NCBI RefSeq assembly: GCF_009914755.1 | Contig: NC_060947.1 | Direction: 5' to 3' (one strand) | From: the human T2T-CHM13v2.0 reference genome, Homo sapiens | DNA: 64,000 bases | In this document: in pieces, positions 43,230-48,394 of the stretch | Layout of the letters: the number at the start of each line of letters is the position of its first letter | Position numbering within the stretch: the stretch's first letter is position 1 | The notes under the pieces: generated by a model | What the model was told of the DNA's origin: nothing | The model's input: only the letters and a program-made list of their open reading frames with translations | Database searches by the model: none | Program-made: the position numbers and the translations under genes

Positions 43230-44480
43230 GTTTCCCAAGTCACTAGATTTGCAGCGCACAAAACCGGAAAGGTCCCGGTAAACCTGTCCACTGGCACCTG
43301 GGCAGCGAAGCGCTTTGGCCGGAGGGCCTCAGGTCCCAGCAGCGGGATGGACAGCGGGGAGATGGCTGACCCTCCTTGGGGTGGTGTGCGTGACCTGCAT
43401 GAGTGCCTGGGGCATCTCCTGCACGGAATGGCACCCGCACCAGGTGCCCCTGGCCTCGCCAGCCAGAGGACCAGTCCTGGACGGGGAGGGGGAGGACAAG
43501 AGCAGGTGAACAGGCCCCAGAACCCGGCTCCCTGACCCTGGCCATAATGCAGAGCTGCCTGGCGCACCTCAGACCACTCCCTGGCCCTCTGGTGGGCACG
43601 CCGGGGTGCAGACCCCTCGCCCCGCTGGCACCTCCGTGGCACGTGCGGGAGGGGCAGGAGCCGGGACCAGGAACCGCTGTGGTGAGAGCCAAAGGCACGG
43701 GGACTGGCCGCCACAGACCTTTGGCCACCGCAGTGGGGATGGGGGTGGGCGGGCGCTTGTGTGCCCGGGGGCCCGGGGGCCCCCGTGGCGAGGGGGCTAG
43801 GGGAGAGGAGCAGGTGACGTCACCCGGGGACCTGGGGCCCCCAGGGGCGGCGGCGAGAGCCCGACCTCGTGACCCGTCCGCGCCAATGGCCCTGCGGTCT
43901 CCCGGACGACGCGGAGGGGTCCGCGCTGCACCGCCGCCGCGCCCCCGCCCCGTGTCCGCACTGCAGAGAGCCGCGGCGAGCAGGCGCCGGCGCACTGGCC
44001 CACGTGCTGCGCGAGCGAGGGAGAGCCACAGTCTGAGCGAACGTCCGCGCTGGGAGCCAGGGGTGCCCGACCCCCGTCCGCCGCCGCCGCCGCCGCCGCG
44101 CATAGCCCCCGGAGAGCCCTCTGGGGACCCCGACCAGAAGGGACCTTGCCCTGGGAGAAGGTAACAGACCCACCTGGGGAGGGAGACGCTGGGCCCCGGG
44201 AGACTCCGCCGCCCCTCGCCTGTCCGCCCTATCAGAACTGAAGCAGCCTGCAGGGCAGGGGTCCAGGGTCCTGGGGCAGCGCGGGGAGGGGGCTGAGGCC
44301 CGCAGAGACCCCACGGGGGGTGGGGGTGGGGGGCTGGGCAGGGGCGGGGCCTGGCTGCAGAGGCGCCGCCCGGGGAGGAGGGCGGCTGGGGGTGGGGGTG
44401 GGGGTGGGCGTGGATGTGGGCGTGCGGAGAGGTGGGCATTAACCTCGCTCTCGCCCTGCTCGCATTCACAGGCTGTGGAG
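43230..44480 (+). promoter_or_regulatory. PNMA3 CpG-island promoter, non-coding exon 1 and intron (44161-44471)
   Basis: CpG-rich; perfect CRE TGACGTCA at 43815-43822, CCAAT and GC boxes; donor AAG|GTAACA; branch-like CATTAAC and acceptor TCACAG|. Confidence 0.8.
44078..44098 (+). repeat. (CCG)7 in the PNMA3 5'UTR exon
   Basis: Read directly. Confidence 0.9.
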
Positions 44481-44577
44481 ACCTGGGCCTTCTGCGATCA
44501 CCCTAGGAGTTGATCCAGATATGTGCCTCACGCCCTGATCACTACCCCCAAATTAGTATCCGCAGAGATTCGAGGAC

Positions 44578-45969
44578 ATGCCGTTGACCTTGTTACAGGA
44601 CTGGTGTCGGGGGGAACACCTGAACACCCGGAGGTGCATGCTCATCCTGGGGATCCCCGAGGACTGTGGCGAGGATGAGTTTGAGGAGACACTCCAGGAG
44701 GCTTGCAGGCACCTGGGCAGATACAGGGTGATTGGCAGGATGTTTAGGAGGGAGGAGAACGCCCAGGCGATTCTACTGGAGCTGGCACAAGATATCGACT
44801 ATGCTTTGCTCCCAAGGGAAATACCAGGAAAGGGGGGGCCCTGGGAAGTGATTGTAAAACCCCGTAACTCAGATGGGGAATTTCTCAACAGACTGAACCG
44901 CTTCTTAGAGGAGGAGAGGCGGACCGTGTCAGATATGAACCGAGTCCTCGGGTCGGACACCAATTGTTCGGCTCCAAGAGTGACTATATCACCAGAGTTC
45001 TGGACCTGGGCCCAGACTCTGGGGGCAGCAGTGCAGCCTCTGCTAGAACAAATGTTGTACCGAGAACTAAGAGTGTTTTCTGGGAACACCATATCCATCC
45101 CAGGTGCACTGGCCTTTGATGCCTGGCTTGAGCACACCACTGAGATGCTACAGATGTGGCAGGTGCCCGAGGGGGAAAAGAGGCGGAGGCTGATGGAATG
45201 CTTACGGGGCCCTGCTCTCCAGGTGGTCAGTGGGCTCCGGGCCAGCAATGCTTCCATAACTGTGGAGGAGTGCCTGGCTGCCTTGCAGCAGGTGTTCGGA
45301 CCTGTGGAGAGCCATAAAATTGCCCAGGTGAAGTTGTGTAAAGCCTATCAGGAGGCAGGAGAGAAAGTATCTAGCTTTGTGTTACGTTTGGAACCCCTGC
45401 TCCAAAGAGCTGTAGAAAACAATGTGGTATCACGTAGAAACGTGAATCAGACTCGCCTGAAACGAGTCTTAAGTGGGGCCACCCTTCCTGACAAACTCCG
45501 AGATAAGCTTAAGCTGATGAAACAGCGAAGGAAGCCTCCTGGTTTCCTGGCCCTGGTGAAGCTCCTGCGTGAGGAGGAGGAATGGGAGGCCACTTTAGGT
45601 CCAGATAGGGAGAGTCTGGAGGGGCTGGAAGTAGCCCCAAGGCCACCTGCCAGGATCACTGGGGTTGGGGCAGTACCTCTCCCTGCCTCTGGCAACAGTT
45701 TTGATGCGAGGCCTTCCCAGGGCTACCGGCGCCGGAGGGGCAGAGGCCAACACCGAAGGGGTGGTGTGGCAAGGGCTGGCTCTCGAGGCTCAAGAAAACG
45801 GAAACGCCACACATTCTGCTATAGCTGTGGGGAAGACGGCCACATCAGGGTACAGTGCATCAACCCCTCCAACCTGCTCTTGGTAAAGCAGAAGAAACAG
45901 GCTGCAGTTGAGTCGGGAAACGGGAACTGGGCTTGGGACAAGAGCCATCCCAAGTCCAAGGCCAAGTAG
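44578..45969 (+). CDS. PNMA3: Paraneoplastic antigen Ma3 (Gag-like: N-terminal domain, capsid-like domain, CCHC zinc knuckle), 463 aa
   Basis: MPLTLLQDWCRGEHLNTRRCMLILGIP... recognised; CYSCGEDGHIRVQC knuckle at 45817-45858. Confidence 0.98.
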   Translation: MPLTLLQDWCRGEHLNTRRCMLILGIPEDCGEDEFEETLQEACRHLGRYRVIGRMFRREENAQAILLELAQDIDYALLPREIPGKGGPWEVIVKPRNSDGEFLNRLNRFLEEERRTVSDMNRVLGSDTNCSAPRVTISPEFWTWAQTLGAAVQPLLEQMLYRELRVFSGNTISIPGALAFDAWLEHTTEMLQMWQVPEGEKRRRLMECLRGPALQVVSGLRASNASITVEECLAALQQVFGPVESHKIAQVKLCKAYQEAGEKVSSFVLRLEPLLQRAVENNVVSRRNVNQTRLKRVLSGATLPDKLRDKLKLMKQRRKPPGFLALVKLLREEEEWEATLGPDRESLEGLEVAPRPPARITGVGAVPLPASGNSFDARPSQGYRRRRGRGQHRRGGVARAGSRGSRKRKRHTFCYSCGEDGHIRVQCINPSNLLLVKQKKQAAVESGNGNWAWDKSHPKSKAK

Positions 45970-45973
45970 GCTC
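45915..45973 (+). other. PNMA3: -1 programmed ribosomal frameshift signal (slippery heptamer plus H-type pseudoknot)
   Basis: In-frame G GGA AAC (45915-45921), 6-nt spacer, stem1 TGGGCTTGGGA/TCCCAAGTCCA (45928-38/45948-58), stem2 GAGCC/GGCTC (45942-46/45969-73). A PNMA3 frameshift signal is known from the literature. Confidence 0.92.
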
Positions 45974-46706
45974 GGGAGAACAGGGCAACATTTCCTACCA
46001 CAGGCCAAGGAGACAAAAGAGATATTGGAAGGAGGGGAAAGAGAAGCCCAGACAAACAGCAGATGAGTTGAGTGGGGCAGAGGGACAGGGCAGCCAGACC
46101 AAGGCCAAGCCTTCTCACCCTTGGCCAGCTGGAAGGGACTTCAGCAACCAAGACCACCTGGCAACAGGCTCAGTGGGGGTCAGGTCCAGGTCCCCGAAGA
46201 GGTGCTGGAGAGGAAAGCAGGGAGCCACTGCATCCAGCACATGGGGTGCCTGGGCCTCAGATGGGGACCCCAAAGAAGCAGAAGCTGAAGAAGGTACGGC
46301 TGGGGGTTCTGTCCTGCTCATCCAACCACCCCTAAATACCCACCCTGTGGACTTTGAGCTGAACATGCCCACTGGCCCCCAGGCCACATGGGACCTGGAG
46401 GAGCCTACCTGGGGCCTGCCCCTGCCAGCAGGTGCCAGGGCTGGTGAGGAAGAGCTGGGGGGCAGAGGTAAAGCCCTGCAGGGGAGGCCACAGGGTCCAT
46501 CCCGTCTTCAGGATCATCTACACTGCACTAGGGGAGCCCCAGGAAGGCAGCACCCTGGAGGCCCTGTGCCAGTGAGGACAGGAGACCCTAAGGCCCCGGG
46601 AGCCCAGTGCCAGCCAGAGGTTGTGCAGGCAAGGAGACCAAAGATTGATGAGAAGACCCCCAGCAGGGGTACTGGGTACCCGGCAGGCCAGTGCCCTCAC
46701 AGTTGA
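45921..46706 (+). CDS. PNMA3: -1 frame extension of PNMA3 (261 codons; fusion about 709 aa)
   Basis: The -1 frame is open from the slip site to TGA 46704-46706. Confidence 0.6.
   Translation, partial: RELGLGQEPSQVQGQVGSGEQGNISYHRPRRQKRYWKEGKEKPRQTADELSGAEGQGSQTKAKPSHPWPAGRDFSNQDHLATGSVGVRSRSPKRCWRGKQGATASSTWGAWASDGDPKEAEAEEGTAGGSVLLIQPPLNTHPVDFELNMPTGPQATWDLEEPTWGLPLPAGARAGEEELGGRGKALQGRPQGPSRLQDHLHCTRGAPGRQHPGGPVPVRTGDPKAPGAQCQPEVVQARRPKIDEKTPSRGTGYPAGQCPHS
46004..46066 (+). CDS. PNMA3: Alternative spliced PNMA3 C-terminus AKETKEILEGGEREAQTNSR* (455-aa isoform; intron 45883-46003)
   Basis: Donor TTG|GTAAAG and acceptor tttcctaccacag|GCC. Matches my recollection of a 455-aa PNMA3 isoform. 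Confidence 0.75.
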   Translation, partial: AKETKEILEGGEREAQTNSR

Positions 46707-47964
46707 CTTGGACCAGGGTGGCTGTGAAGGGAAGTCTTTGTTGCAAAGGAGGAGGAGGAAAAGGGAGGACTTGGTAGGGTTTTGTTTCTTCTGCTTGTTT
46801 CTGTACAGGGCCACCAGACTCCTGGAGAGATCAAGCAAGGAGAACCTGGGGCTGCCATGGCCAAAGCAACTCAACAGATGCCAATGCCAATTCCAAGGCC
46901 AGCCACAACCCTGCCACCTTGGGGAATCCAGCCTGGAGGCATCCCCTAAGCAGCCAGCCATGGCCTGGGTGGAGGCACCTGAAGACGTCTGTCCCAAACT
47001 CCCCCAGCCCTGAGCTGGGAGATGACAGGGGGAAAGAGGCCCTCTCAAGGGTGCCAGATGCCTGGGTCTCCCAAGAGGGGTCCCCCAACTCACCGTTCCC
47101 GGGACAGGCTGCCCCCTGTTCCAGGAAGCTCATCCTCACCTGTGTAGGCCCCTGTAGTGACCCACGCGTCCAGCAGACGCCCACCCACCGCTAGCCGTTG
47201 TTCCTGTGCAAAGTAGTGTGCTATGCACCCACCCAGGTGGCCGCCTCTGGGCCCAAGGCACATGCTGTGAGCTTCCTGTGAGCCCAGGCTCTGCTCACTG
47301 CTGTCCCGCGTCATGAGCACCACCTCTGCTTTCCCTGTGTAGATCTAGGCCAGTGGCTGCTTGTTCTTGTGGAGCTGTGTGTGTTCTTCTCTGAGCAGCT
47401 CCTCCCCGGAGTCCCCCAGCACAGTCCCAGGAGATGACAGGAAGGAAGCACCAGGGCAAGGCGGACGCTCACCCTGTGACCACGATGGTGACCGTGACTG
47501 TGGGAGGAAGAACTGGACCCAGGACAGAGCGGGGCTGCCCTGCCTGAGGCTCCCGAGGAGCTTTGTGCTTTGGTGTTCCACCCCTGTTGTTACTCATGAC
47601 TCAGTTTCCTTGACCTGGTAGGGTGTTCCCTGCTGTGTTTTCCAGTGTCCTGTGACTGTCCTGTGCGGGCCATAGGGCAGGGCCCTGCCCCAGCAGATGG
47701 GCTTGGGAGGGGGCTCCCTAAAGCCAGTGGACACTGCCAGAGTCTACCTTCCTGGCAAGAGGCAGACCCCGGGGCCCTCAGGAAGGAGGGAGTTGGCAGC
47801 GGGGGCTGCAGCAGGAGTAGGAGCAGATGAGGCGTCTTGCCAGGAACCTCAGGAGGAGGGGGCCCGGGACCTGTGTGGGACCTGTGTCCTGTGGTGGCCG
47901 TTTGCAGTTTCTCTCTGTGTTGTGATTCCCTTCTCTTCAACGGTTTCAGTACGTGTTTCTCTTC

Positions 47965-47970
47965 AATAAA
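47965..47970 (+). terminator. PNMA3 poly(A) signal
   Basis: AATAAA ending the shared PNMA 3'UTR module, followed by a GU-rich element. Confidence 0.8.
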
Positions 47971-48394
47971 CTTCATTCAGTGTTCCAGCCGGCCTCGCCT
48001 CTGCTGTGGGAAACTGGGGATGAGGTTGGCTGGGGATGGGGTTGGGGTGGAGTGAGGGCCACAGTGGCTTTGTTAACACTGGTGTATACTTGGGGCTCGG
48101 TCTGCAAGGCATTCTAGAATGCCCTATCTGCGCATGTTGGTCATGAGCTAGGGTTCACGGCCCACGGACCCAGGCAAAGAAACCCAGCTGAGCAGGCTGG
48201 ATAGTCCCAGTAGACAGGACACTGGTAGGCCCAGGCAGTGGCTGGTTGGGTCCTCAGGGCACTGGTTGAGCTTCTCAGAAATGAATAACATATTTAAGGA
48301 AGGGTGAGGGACAGCAGGCTGGACCAGTGGCCCCAGGATCCCTTGTATCACTATTGGGCTTCCACACCTGGAGCATCAAAACCAGGCCCATCTC

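What the first reader, a model, noticed from the sequence alone, without database searches (positions are those of the whole stretch)
45915..45973. Intact retroviral-type -1 frameshift signal in a cellular gene
X XXY YYZ heptamer in the correct frame, a 6-nt spacer, an 11-bp stem1 and a 5-bp stem2 whose 3' strand overlaps the stop codon. The position after the zinc knuckle is the same as a gag-pol junction, as in PEG10 (also G GGA AAC). This is established for PNMA3, not new, but standard annotation misses it.
Basis: partly seen in the sequence, partly recalled or inferred. Interest (0 to 1): 0.7.

Follow-up and report, generated by a model that had tools for sequence, protein, structure and literature searches.

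The report
Known PNMA3 ribosomal frameshift signal
This is the already published signal in the human PNMA3 gene that makes some ribosomes slip back one base and extend the Gag-like protein with a long disordered tail; it is real but not new.

Summary
GGGAAAC lies at 45915-45921 in X XXY YYZ phase of the PNMA3 CDS. It is followed by a 6-nt spacer and an 11-bp stem 1 (45928-38 / 45948-58). A 5-bp stem 2 (45942-46 / 45969-73) has a 3' strand that takes in the last G of the TAG stop.

Rfam family RF01093, "Ma3 gene ribosomal frameshift signal", matches 45915-45974 full length at 81.5 bits against a cut-off of 35. The same search of the human genome found two matches, PNMA3 and PNMA5.

The -1 frame opens one codon before the heptamer and stays open for 263 codons; 2 of 2000 shuffles do so. 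The predicted trans-frame product is 709 aa against 463 aa. Papers report 8.5-20% frameshifting, ribosome footprints beyond the ORF1 stop, and conservation across placentals.

ORF2 has no Pfam domain, no Atlas relative and no predicted fold. Its dN/dS against PNMA5 is about 0.9, yet both copies stay open and differ only by in-frame indels.

Verdict: already known. The function of ORF2 remains open.

The parts
44578..45969 (+). PNMA3 ORF1 (0 frame). It encodes a 463-aa Gag-like protein with PNMA_N, PNMA capsid-like and CCHC knuckle regions.
   Evidence: ATG, TAG and frame were checked; translation. Pfam gives PF20846 at 3e-41, PF14893 at 1.1e-72, and PF00098 at 16.5 bits, below its 20.8 cut-off.
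45817..45858 (+). CCHC zinc knuckle (residues 414-427, pattern CX2CX4HX4C), 20 codons upstream of the slip site.
   Evidence: The Pfam zf-CCHC stretch covers 414-427. The pattern is visible in the translation.
45909..45911 (+). TGA in the -1 frame. The -1 ORF opens at 45912, one codon before the heptamer.
   Evidence: -1 frame opens at 45912; sequence read.
45915..45921 (+). Slip site G GGA AAC, in X XXY YYZ phase of ORF1 (codons 447-448, Gly-Asn).
   Evidence: Rfam model positions 1-7.
45922..45927 (+). 6-nt spacer.
45928..45938 (+). Stem 1, 5' arm (11 nt).
   Evidence: Rfam consensus structure.
45939..45941 (+). Pseudoknot loop 1 (3 nt).
   Evidence: Geometry.
45942..45946 (+). Stem 2, 5' arm (GAGCC), inside the stem-1 loop.
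   Evidence: It is invariant between PNMA3 and PNMA5 and upper case in the Rfam consensus.
45948..45958 (+). Stem 1, 3' arm (11 nt).
   Evidence: Rfam consensus structure.
45959..45968 (+). Pseudoknot loop 3 (10 nt). It includes the first two bases of the stop codon.
45967..45969 (+). ORF1 stop codon TAG.
45969..45973 (+). Stem 2, 3' arm (GGCTC).
   Evidence: invariant in PNMA5.
45921..46706 (+). ORF2 as read after the shift: 261 sense codons plus the stop, giving a 709-aa trans-frame product. No domain and no predicted fold.
   Evidence: Pfam found nothing. The Atlas gave no usable hit. AlphaFold2 mean pLDDT was 40.9. ORF2 is 60% identical to PNMA5 ORF2.
45883..46003 (+). Annotated alternative 121-nt GT-AG intron that removes the heptamer, pseudoknot and ORF1 stop. 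It yields a 455-aa isoform with no frameshift cassette.
   Evidence: Exon ends come from the gene table supplied; splice sites and lengths were computed.
46294..46808 (+). Annotated alternative 515-nt GT-AG intron inside ORF2. In that transcript the trans-frame product would be 700 aa, ending at TAG 47192.
   Evidence: Exon ends come from the gene table supplied; computed.

Best explanation
This is the programmed -1 ribosomal frameshift signal of the PNMA3 (Ma3) mRNA. PNMA3 is a domesticated Ty3/Metaviridae-type gag gene.

Proposed mechanism: a ribosome decoding GGA-AAC (codons 447-448) meets the downstream structure 6 nt further on. That structure is an 11-bp stem whose loop pairs with 5 nt at and just after the stop codon, forming an H-type pseudoknot. 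The stall lets both tRNAs re-pair one base back, on GGG-AAA. A minority of ribosomes then continue in the -1 frame from 45921, bypass the TAG at 45967 and make a 709-aa Gag-ORF2 fusion. The majority make the 463-aa Gag-like protein.

Shown here: the sequence anatomy, the phase, the open -1 frame, the Rfam membership and the paralogous copy in PNMA5.
Taken from papers: that frameshifting actually happens and how efficient it is.
Inferred: that stem 2 forms, and that the tail has a use. The tail appears to be an intrinsically disordered extension. Its reading frame is kept open, but its amino-acid sequence is barely constrained.
For: Sequence anatomy and phase:
- The geometry and phase were verified.
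- Stem 1 is predicted both in isolation and in 201 nt of context, including the centroid structure.

Family membership and paralogue:
- Rfam RF01093 matches 45915-45974 over model positions 1-60 of 60, at 81.5 bits against a cut-off of 35.
- The same model over the whole human assembly gave 2 matches, PNMA3 and PNMA5 (76.6 bits), among 66 scored candidates.
- PNMA3 against PNMA5 at stem 1: 7 of 11 pairs are invariant, 1 changes GC to GU, 1 changes on both sides (UA to GU), and 2 are broken in PNMA5.
- PNMA3 against PNMA5 at stem 2: all 5 of 5 pairs are intact.
- Sliding the partner columns by +/-1 drops paired cells from 93.8% to 53-56%.

The -1 frame:
- It opens at 45912 and runs 263 codons; 2 of 2000 dinucleotide shuffles stay open.
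- An ORF2 homologue exists only downstream of the PNMA5 signal, 2 matches genome-wide, at 60% identity over 190 aa.
- A nucleotide-level alignment of the two ORF2s has only 9-nt and 3-nt indels.
- Neutral substitution at 0.12 per site leaves the frame open in 306 and 427 of 5000 trials.
- The other two frames carry 7-8 stops in the same aligned stretch.

Papers (passages read):
- A review gives about 20% efficient -1 frameshifting, a classical heptamer and an H-type pseudoknot (PMC5009743).
- Reporter assays in HeLa and HEK293T are described (10.1101/513333); an efficiency of 8.5-11% is quoted from Khan et al. 2022 (PMC11299033).
- Ribosome footprints are reported beyond the ORF1 stop (PMC11299033).
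- The slip site is reported as conserved across placentals, with a significant dip in synonymous variation around it (PMC11299033).
Against: - I could not read the primary paper, Wills et al. 2006. That the pseudoknot rather than the hairpin alone is required rests on reviews and on my recollection.
- The pseudoknot's stem 2 shows no covariation in the one paralogue comparison I could make: 5 of 5 pairs never vary, which says nothing for or against it.
- RNAfold's nested optimum instead pairs 45960-63 with 45969-72 in a small 4-bp hairpin that competes with stem 2.
- MFE z-scores are unremarkable, at -1.59 and -0.94.
- ORF2 shows no protein-level constraint. dN/dS against PNMA5 is 0.92 in the ORF2 frame, against 0.74 and 0.96 in the other frames.
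- Published primate dN/dS for ORF2 is 1.04 (supplement table S1 of PMC11299033).
- One paper calls the functional relevance of the frameshift unclear (PMC11011659).
- No passage I read reports detection of the endogenous trans-frame protein by mass spectrometry or antibody.
Confidence: 0.95

Rival explanations
1. The signal frameshifts, but the stimulator is the 11-bp hairpin alone. The 5-bp 'stem 2' does not form or does not matter, and its conservation reflects coding or stop-codon context.
For: Stem 2 never varies between PNMA3 and PNMA5, so there is no covariation support. A competing 4-bp hairpin using the same 3' strand is in the nested MFE. The 3' arm overlaps the stop codon and both reading frames, which could by itself keep it constant.
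Against: A 5-bp Watson-Crick complement between this loop and the next 22 nt arises in 268 of 20,000 shuffles. Both arms are upper case (most conserved) in the Rfam consensus, while the GGCC of the competing hairpin is not conserved there or in PNMA5. A review states that a classical H-type pseudoknot stimulates the shift (PMC5009743). The loop lengths (3, 1 and 10 nt) are sterically compatible with an 11-bp stem 1; that judgement is my recollection of IBV-type pseudoknots and was not tested.
Confidence: 0.1
2. Frameshifting occurs but the ORF2 peptide has no function of its own. Either the signal is a slowly decaying relic of the ancestral gag-pol junction, or what matters is that ribosomes translate through the 3' region (for example by setting Gag dosage or affecting mRNA fate), not the tail itself.
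For: dN/dS is about 0.9-1.0. ORF2 has no domain, no Atlas relative and no predicted fold. It is described as 'poorly conserved' with 'functional relevance unclear' (PMC11011659). Similarity between PNMA3 and PNMA5 is as high in the untranslated distal 3' UTR (81-88%) as in ORF2 (70-90%), so ORF2 similarity is not protein-specific. In the transcript spliced at 46293/46809, the ORF1 stop lies 324 nt upstream of an exon junction.
Against: The frame stays open in both paralogues, with only in-frame indels, which is unlikely under neutrality. The slip site is conserved over about 99 million years, and sites in ORF2 are reported as positively selected (PMC11299033). A relic would be expected to have lost the heptamer or acquired stops.
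Confidence: 0.3
3. The motif is a chance co-occurrence and ribosomes do not shift here in vivo.
For: The nested folding energy is not exceptional for the composition. GGGAAAC occurs 11 times on the + strand of the window against about 4.5 expected from base composition. One claimed human -1 PRF, CCR5, has been contested (10.1101/513333).
Against: The Rfam match is full length at 81.5 bits. The heptamer is in phase, correctly spaced, and sits at the opening of a 263-codon -1 ORF. PNMA5 carries a paralogous copy with the same layout. The same group that refuted CCR5 found that PNMA3 still frameshifts in its improved reporter. Ribosome footprints are reported.
Confidence: 0.02

Closest known systems
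Rfam RF01093 (RF_site5, Ma3 gene ribosomal frameshift signal); Wills et al. 2006, J Biol Chem 281:7082
   Same: It is this element. The match is full length at 81.5 bits, with the same heptamer, spacer, stem 1 and conserved stem-2 arms.
   Different: Nothing of substance. Human has G-U where the family consensus has G-C at one stem-1 pair (45931/45955). The primary paper was not held. Its citation was seen in a reference list and its content only through reviews.
PNMA5 (Ma5) frameshift signal, about 69 kb away on the opposite strand
   Same: It has the same heptamer, a 6-nt spacer, identical stem-2 arms, a TAG stop at the same place and a homologous ORF2.
   Different: Two of the 11 stem-1 pairs are mismatched in PNMA5, in line with its lower reported efficiency of 4.2-4.9% against 8.5-11%. 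PNMA5 ORF1 lacks the CCHC knuckle. Its ORF2 ends earlier, at 194 codons. A second GGGAAAC lies 44 nt downstream.
PEG10 -1 frameshift signal
   Same: It is also a domesticated Metaviridae gag gene, with a GGGAAAC slip site at the end of the gag-like ORF and a pseudoknot stimulator (papers).
   Different: PEG10 ORF2 encodes a conserved aspartic protease under strong constraint (dN/dS 0.067). PNMA3 ORF2 has no domain and dN/dS 1.04. I did not compare the PEG10 sequence itself.
Retroviral and metaviral gag-pol (gag-pro) -1 frameshift sites
   Same: An X XXY YYZ heptamer, a 5-8 nt spacer and a downstream pseudoknot sit just after the nucleocapsid zinc knuckle and just before the gag stop.
   Different: No Pol, protease or reverse-transcriptase similarity remains downstream. 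The gene is a single-copy cellular gene with introns and does not move.

Membership tests
Rfam RF01093 Ma3 frameshift element | Covariance-model score at or above the curated gathering score (35 bits) over the whole model. | tested here: met
   81.5 bits over model positions 1-60 of 60, at 45915-45974 on the + strand.
Canonical eukaryotic -1 PRF signal | X XXY YYZ heptamer in phase with the 0 frame. | tested here: met
   G GGA AAC lies at 45915-45921, and 45916 is the first base of a codon counted from ATG 44578.
Canonical eukaryotic -1 PRF signal | Spacer of about 5-8 nt before a stable downstream structure. | tested here: met
   The spacer is 6 nt. It is followed by an 11-bp stem at -16.7 kcal/mol, in the top 0.37% of 18,278 sampled 31-nt windows. 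The stem persists in 201-nt context.
Canonical eukaryotic -1 PRF signal | H-type pseudoknot: loop of stem 1 pairs with sequence 3' of stem 1. | tested here: inconclusive
   5-bp complementarity is present and rare by chance (268 of 20,000 shuffles), and it is conserved in PNMA5. It shows no covariation and cannot be scored by the nested folding tools. Whether it forms needs probing or mutants.
Canonical eukaryotic -1 PRF signal | Open -1 frame overlapping the end of the 0-frame ORF. | tested here: met
   The -1 frame is open from 45912 to 46706, 263 codons from the heptamer; 2 of 2000 shuffles stay open.
Canonical eukaryotic -1 PRF signal | A trans-frame product is actually made. | not testable with these tools
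   Papers only: about 20%, 8.5-11%, reporter assays in two cell lines, and footprints beyond the stop.
Canonical eukaryotic -1 PRF signal | Conservation of the signal in orthologues. | not testable with these tools
   No other mammalian genome is held. I tested only the human paralogue PNMA5. Orthologue conservation is reported in PMC11299033.
Retroelement gag-pol junction | The upstream ORF is Gag-like with a nucleocapsid zinc knuckle. | tested here: met
   PF14893 PNMA scores 1.1e-72. The CX2CX4HX4C pattern spans residues 414-427. PF00098 scores 16.5 bits, below its 20.8 cut-off.
Retroelement gag-pol junction | The downstream ORF encodes protease, RT or another Pol domain. | tested here: not met
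   There is no Pfam family at E<=0.1; the only hit at E<=1 is a spurious one at 0.25. The Atlas gave no usable hit. AlphaFold2 gave pLDDT 40.9 with no secondary structure. Papers say the same.

The most novel reading that the evidence does not exclude
The frameshift cassette may mark the 5' edge of a 3' module shared by PNMA3 and PNMA5. The module comprises the signal, ORF2 and the distal 3' UTR. It is 70-90% identical between the paralogues, while their gag ORFs are only 40-73% identical, with dN 0.47 and dS about 1.2.

The module is therefore either homogenised by gene conversion between the two inverted genes or constrained at the RNA level. In the second case, the thing selected in ORF2 would be an open frame (translation through the region) plus RNA sequence, not the peptide. 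One possible purpose is to control mRNA fate, as in the transcript where the ORF1 stop lies 324 nt upstream of an exon junction.

I did not find this stated in the passages I read. 'Gene conversion' has 0 occurrences in PMC11299033. I made no dedicated literature search for it.
Probability: 0.15. Interest if true: 0.5.

Novelty: already known. Interest (0 to 1): 0.12.

Why it matters
PNMA3 is one of only three generally accepted cases of retrovirus-type -1 frameshifting in human cellular genes, with PNMA5 and PEG10. It serves as a positive control for claims of cellular frameshifting. It is also a reminder that the coding span in the gene table supplied stops at the ORF1 stop.

Nothing about the signal itself is new. 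What stays open is what the 261-residue disordered tail does. It is also open why its frame is preserved while its sequence evolves almost neutrally.

Tried and rejected
- The primary paper (Wills et al. 2006, PubMed id 16407312) is not held. I could not check the published stem boundaries or the mutant data.
- A count of uninterrupted 11-bp helices with G-U allowed gave 1097 start positions on the + strand and 30 on the - strand. That asymmetry points to simple repeats, so I dropped the statistic and used folding energies instead.
- A Pfam scan of ORF2 at E<=1 gave only BNLF2a at E = 0.25 and 11.8 bits against a cut-off of 27. I judged it chance.
- The ESM Atlas search by features gave no usable hit, and no structure search was possible.
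- AlphaFold2 on a 2-row alignment gave pLDDT 40.9. With so shallow an alignment this cannot prove disorder, and I ran no fold search on so poor a model.
- dN/dS between the paralogues in three frames showed no frame-specific constraint. The 60% amino-acid identity of the two ORF2s is therefore not evidence of protein-level selection.
- The supplement of PMC11299033 (part 1 of 4 read) holds tables, figure text and, per its file listing, species sheets. I saw no sequences there, so no orthologue covariation test was possible.
- The other Rfam hits in 43900-48100 at E<=10 (13 of 14) are all far below their gathering scores and were ignored.
- I did not use the large protein searches (search for homologous proteins, the search of protein representatives), complex prediction or fold search.
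Full report
**Observation.** I read 45780-46320 and checked the geometry by script.

- The PNMA3 coding sequence runs from ATG 44578 to TAG 45967-45969 and encodes 463 codons.
- GGGAAAC occupies 45915-45921. Position 45916 is the first base of a 0-frame codon, so the heptamer is read G GGA AAC, the X XXY YYZ phase needed for tandem tRNA slippage.
- A 6-nt spacer follows at 45922-45927.
- Stem 1 pairs 45928-45938 with 45948-45958. It has 11 uninterrupted pairs, one of them G-U, and closes a 9-nt loop.
- GAGCC at 45942-45946, inside that loop, is the exact complement of GGCTC at 45969-45973. The first base of that 3' arm is the last G of the stop codon.
- The pseudoknot loops would be 3, 1 and 10 nt.

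**Is it more than chance?**

- The 31-nt stem-1 hairpin folds at -16.7 kcal/mol. Of 18,278 sampled 31-nt windows on both strands of the window, 67 fold as well. Within PNMA3 exon 2, 5 of 3485 windows do, at three places.
- A 5-bp complement between the loop and the next 22 nt arises in 268 of 20,000 shuffles.
- Only four in-phase XXXYYYZ patterns exist in the CDS.
- The -1 frame has a TGA at 45909-45911, opens at 45912 and stays open for 263 codons from the heptamer. Two of 2000 dinucleotide shuffles of that stretch are stop-free.
- Against this, overall nested folding energy is not exceptional for the composition. The z-score is -1.59 for 59 nt, with 18 of 200 shuffles as good. It is -0.94 for 201 nt, with 38 of 200. 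Stem 1 does survive in the longer context, including the centroid structure.

**Identity.** Rfam holds a curated family for exactly this element. RF01093, 'Ma3 gene ribosomal frameshift signal', matches 45915-45974 over the whole 60-position model at 81.5 bits against a gathering score of 35. It is the only Rfam family above its cut-off in the 64-kb window. Both stem-2 arms are upper case in the family consensus. Human has a G-U where the consensus has G-C at one stem-1 pair.

The same model run over the whole assembly gave two matches among 66 scored candidates. One is this site. The other scores 76.6 bits on the opposite strand about 69 kb away, inside the span the gene table gives for PNMA5.

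**Comparison with PNMA5.** The two signals align without gaps from heptamer to stem 2. Counting pairs on that alignment gives:

| Helix | Pairs | Invariant | One side changed | Both sides changed | Broken in PNMA5 |
|---|---|---|---|---|---|
| Stem 1 | 11 | 7 | 1 (GC to GU) | 1 (UA to GU) | 2 |
| Stem 2 | 5 | 5 | 0 | 0 | 0 |

Sliding the 3' partners by one column drops the paired cells from 93.8% to 53-56%. With two sequences the shuffle control has no power (252 of 500). This therefore shows conservation of the layout, not covariation. The weaker PNMA5 stem fits its lower reported efficiency.

**The product.** Shifting at the heptamer would give 448 ORF1 residues plus 261 ORF2 residues, 709 aa in all, against 463 aa for the unshifted product.

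- ORF1 carries the PNMA N-terminal and PNMA capsid-like domains. It also has a CX2CX4HX4C knuckle at residues 414-427, 20 codons before the slip site.
- ORF2 matches no Pfam family. The only hit at E<=1 is a chance one at E = 0.25.
- ORF2 has no usable ESM Atlas neighbour.
- AlphaFold2 on a two-row alignment gave mean pLDDT 40.9 and no secondary structure. The shallow alignment limits what that shows.
- In the human genome, ORF2 has one relative, the -1 ORF behind the PNMA5 signal. The two are 60% identical over 190 residues.

That similarity is not protein-specific. dN/dS between the two ORF2s is 0.92 in the ORF2 frame, and 0.74 and 0.96 in the other two frames. Even so, the ORF2 frame has no stop in 194 aligned codons, while the other frames have 7-8. 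A nucleotide-level alignment shows only 9-nt and 3-nt indels. A simple neutral simulation at 0.12 substitutions per site keeps the frame open in 306 of 5000 trials for PNMA3 and 427 of 5000 for PNMA5. The frame, rather than the sequence, looks preserved.

**What papers say.** I read passages only unless stated.

- PMC5009743 (one passage). Ma3 expression involves about 20% efficient -1 frameshifting at a classical heptamer, stimulated by a classical H-type pseudoknot. Ma5 appears similar. The product of the second frame resembles no known protein.
- 10.1101/513333 (two passages). PNMA3, PNMA5 and PEG10 share GGGAAAC and still frameshift in an improved reporter in HeLa and HEK293T cells, whereas CCR5 does not.
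- PMC11299033 (passages; supplement part 1 of 4).
  - Efficiencies of 8.5-11% for PNMA3 and PEG10 and 4.2-4.9% for PNMA5 are quoted from Khan et al. 2022.
  - Aggregate ribosome footprints extend beyond the ORF1 stop of PNMA3.
  - The slip site is conserved across placentals, with a significant dip in synonymous variation around it.
  - ORF2 is fully disordered and resembles no Pol protein.
  - Primate dN/dS is 0.307 for ORF1 and 1.04 for ORF2.
- PMC11011659 (passages) calls the sequences after the PNMA3 and PNMA5 frameshifts poorly conserved and their relevance unclear.
- 10.1101/2021.04.23.441185 (passages) recovered Ma3, Ma5 and PEG10 in a blind screen of 43,191 human mRNAs.
- The primary paper, Wills et al. 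2006, is not held. I saw its citation in a reference list. My memory that it tested the pseudoknot by mutation is recollection only.

**Mechanism and rivals.** The best reading, at confidence 0.95, is the known programmed -1 frameshift. A pseudoknot-induced pause lets the tRNAs on GGA-AAC re-pair on GGG-AAA. A minority of ribosomes then continue into ORF2.

- Hairpin only. That the stimulator is only the hairpin is possible, at about 0.1. Stem 2 has no covariation support here, and a 4-bp hairpin (45960-63 / 45969-72) competes for its 3' strand in the nested optimum. However, that competitor is not conserved in PNMA5 or in the Rfam consensus.
- No function for the tail. That the tail has no function of its own, and that the signal is a relic or acts through translation of the 3' region, stays open at about 0.3. 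This reading does not conflict with frameshifting itself.
- Chance. This reading is effectively excluded.

**Family membership.** The element meets the Rfam cut-off and the sequence-level criteria of a canonical -1 PRF signal: phase, spacer, stable stem and open overlapping -1 frame. Formation of the pseudoknot is inconclusive with these tools. Production of the trans-frame protein and conservation in orthologues could not be tested here and rest on papers. As a 'gag-pol junction' it passes on the gag side and fails on the pol side, because no Pol-like domain remains. It works like a retroviral gag-pol frameshift but no longer delivers a polymerase or protease.

**Side observations.** The gene table lists two alternative introns, and I checked that both have GT-AG ends.

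- The first, 45883-46003 (121 nt), removes the slip site, the pseudoknot and the ORF1 stop together. It gives a 455-aa isoform that cannot frameshift.
- The second, 46294-46808 (515 nt), lies inside ORF2. In that transcript the trans-frame product would be 700 aa, ending at 47192. The ORF1 stop would sit 324 nt upstream of an exon junction.

A 100-nt identity profile of PNMA3 against PNMA5 shows that the 3' part of the two genes is much more alike than the gag ORF:

| Region (window coordinates) | Identity to PNMA5 |
|---|---|
| ORF1 | 40-73% (dN 0.47, dS about 1.2) |
| ORF2, from the slip site to 46586 | 70% rising to 85-90% |
| 46587-47286 | poorly alignable |
| Distal 3' UTR, 47287-47986 | 81-88% (one gap-rich 100-nt bin at 63%) |

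This calls for either gene conversion or constraint at the RNA level. I could not tell which without other mammalian genomes.

**Verdict.** The element is already known and curated, so interest is low. The only open questions concern ORF2 and the shared 3' module.

Noticed in passing
window 45883-46003: An annotated alternative 121-nt GT-AG intron excises the slip site, the whole pseudoknot and the ORF1 stop in one piece. It gives a 455-aa isoform with 20 new C-terminal residues and no capacity to frameshift. Splicing could therefore switch the frameshift option off.
   Followed up: partly
window 46294-46808: An annotated alternative 515-nt GT-AG intron lies inside ORF2. In that transcript the trans-frame product would be 700 aa, ending at TAG 47192. 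The ORF1 stop would lie 324 nt upstream of an exon junction, a position that usually invites nonsense-mediated decay unless ribosomes read through it.
   Followed up: partly
window 45897-46578 and 47282-48041, against L002/L004 (PNMA5): The region from the frameshift signal through ORF2 is 70-90% identical to PNMA5, and the distal 3' UTR is 81-88% identical. The gag ORFs are only 40-73% identical, with dN 0.47 and dS about 1.2. The 3' part is 2-5 times less diverged than the coding part, which calls for gene conversion or RNA-level constraint.
   Followed up: partly
L002, minus strand, 44 nt 3' of the PNMA5 slip site (inside pseudoknot loop 3): PNMA5 carries a second GGGAAAC. It is out of phase for the 0 frame but in X XXY YYZ phase for the -1 frame, so already-shifted ribosomes would meet a second slippery heptamer (phase worked out by hand). 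PNMA3 has no such second copy.
   Followed up: no
L002 (PNMA5 ORF1) against window 45700-45900: PNMA5 ORF1 lacks the arginine-rich stretch and the CCHC zinc knuckle that precede the slip site in PNMA3. The last 100 or so codons of the two ORF1s are barely alignable (40-45% nucleotide identity), yet similarity resumes about 18 nt before the heptamer.
   Followed up: partly
window, + strand as a whole: There are 1097 positions on the + strand but only 30 on the - strand that start an uninterrupted 11-bp helix when G-U pairs are allowed. Strand-asymmetric simple repeats such as TG-rich runs are the probable cause. I did not locate them.
   Followed up: no
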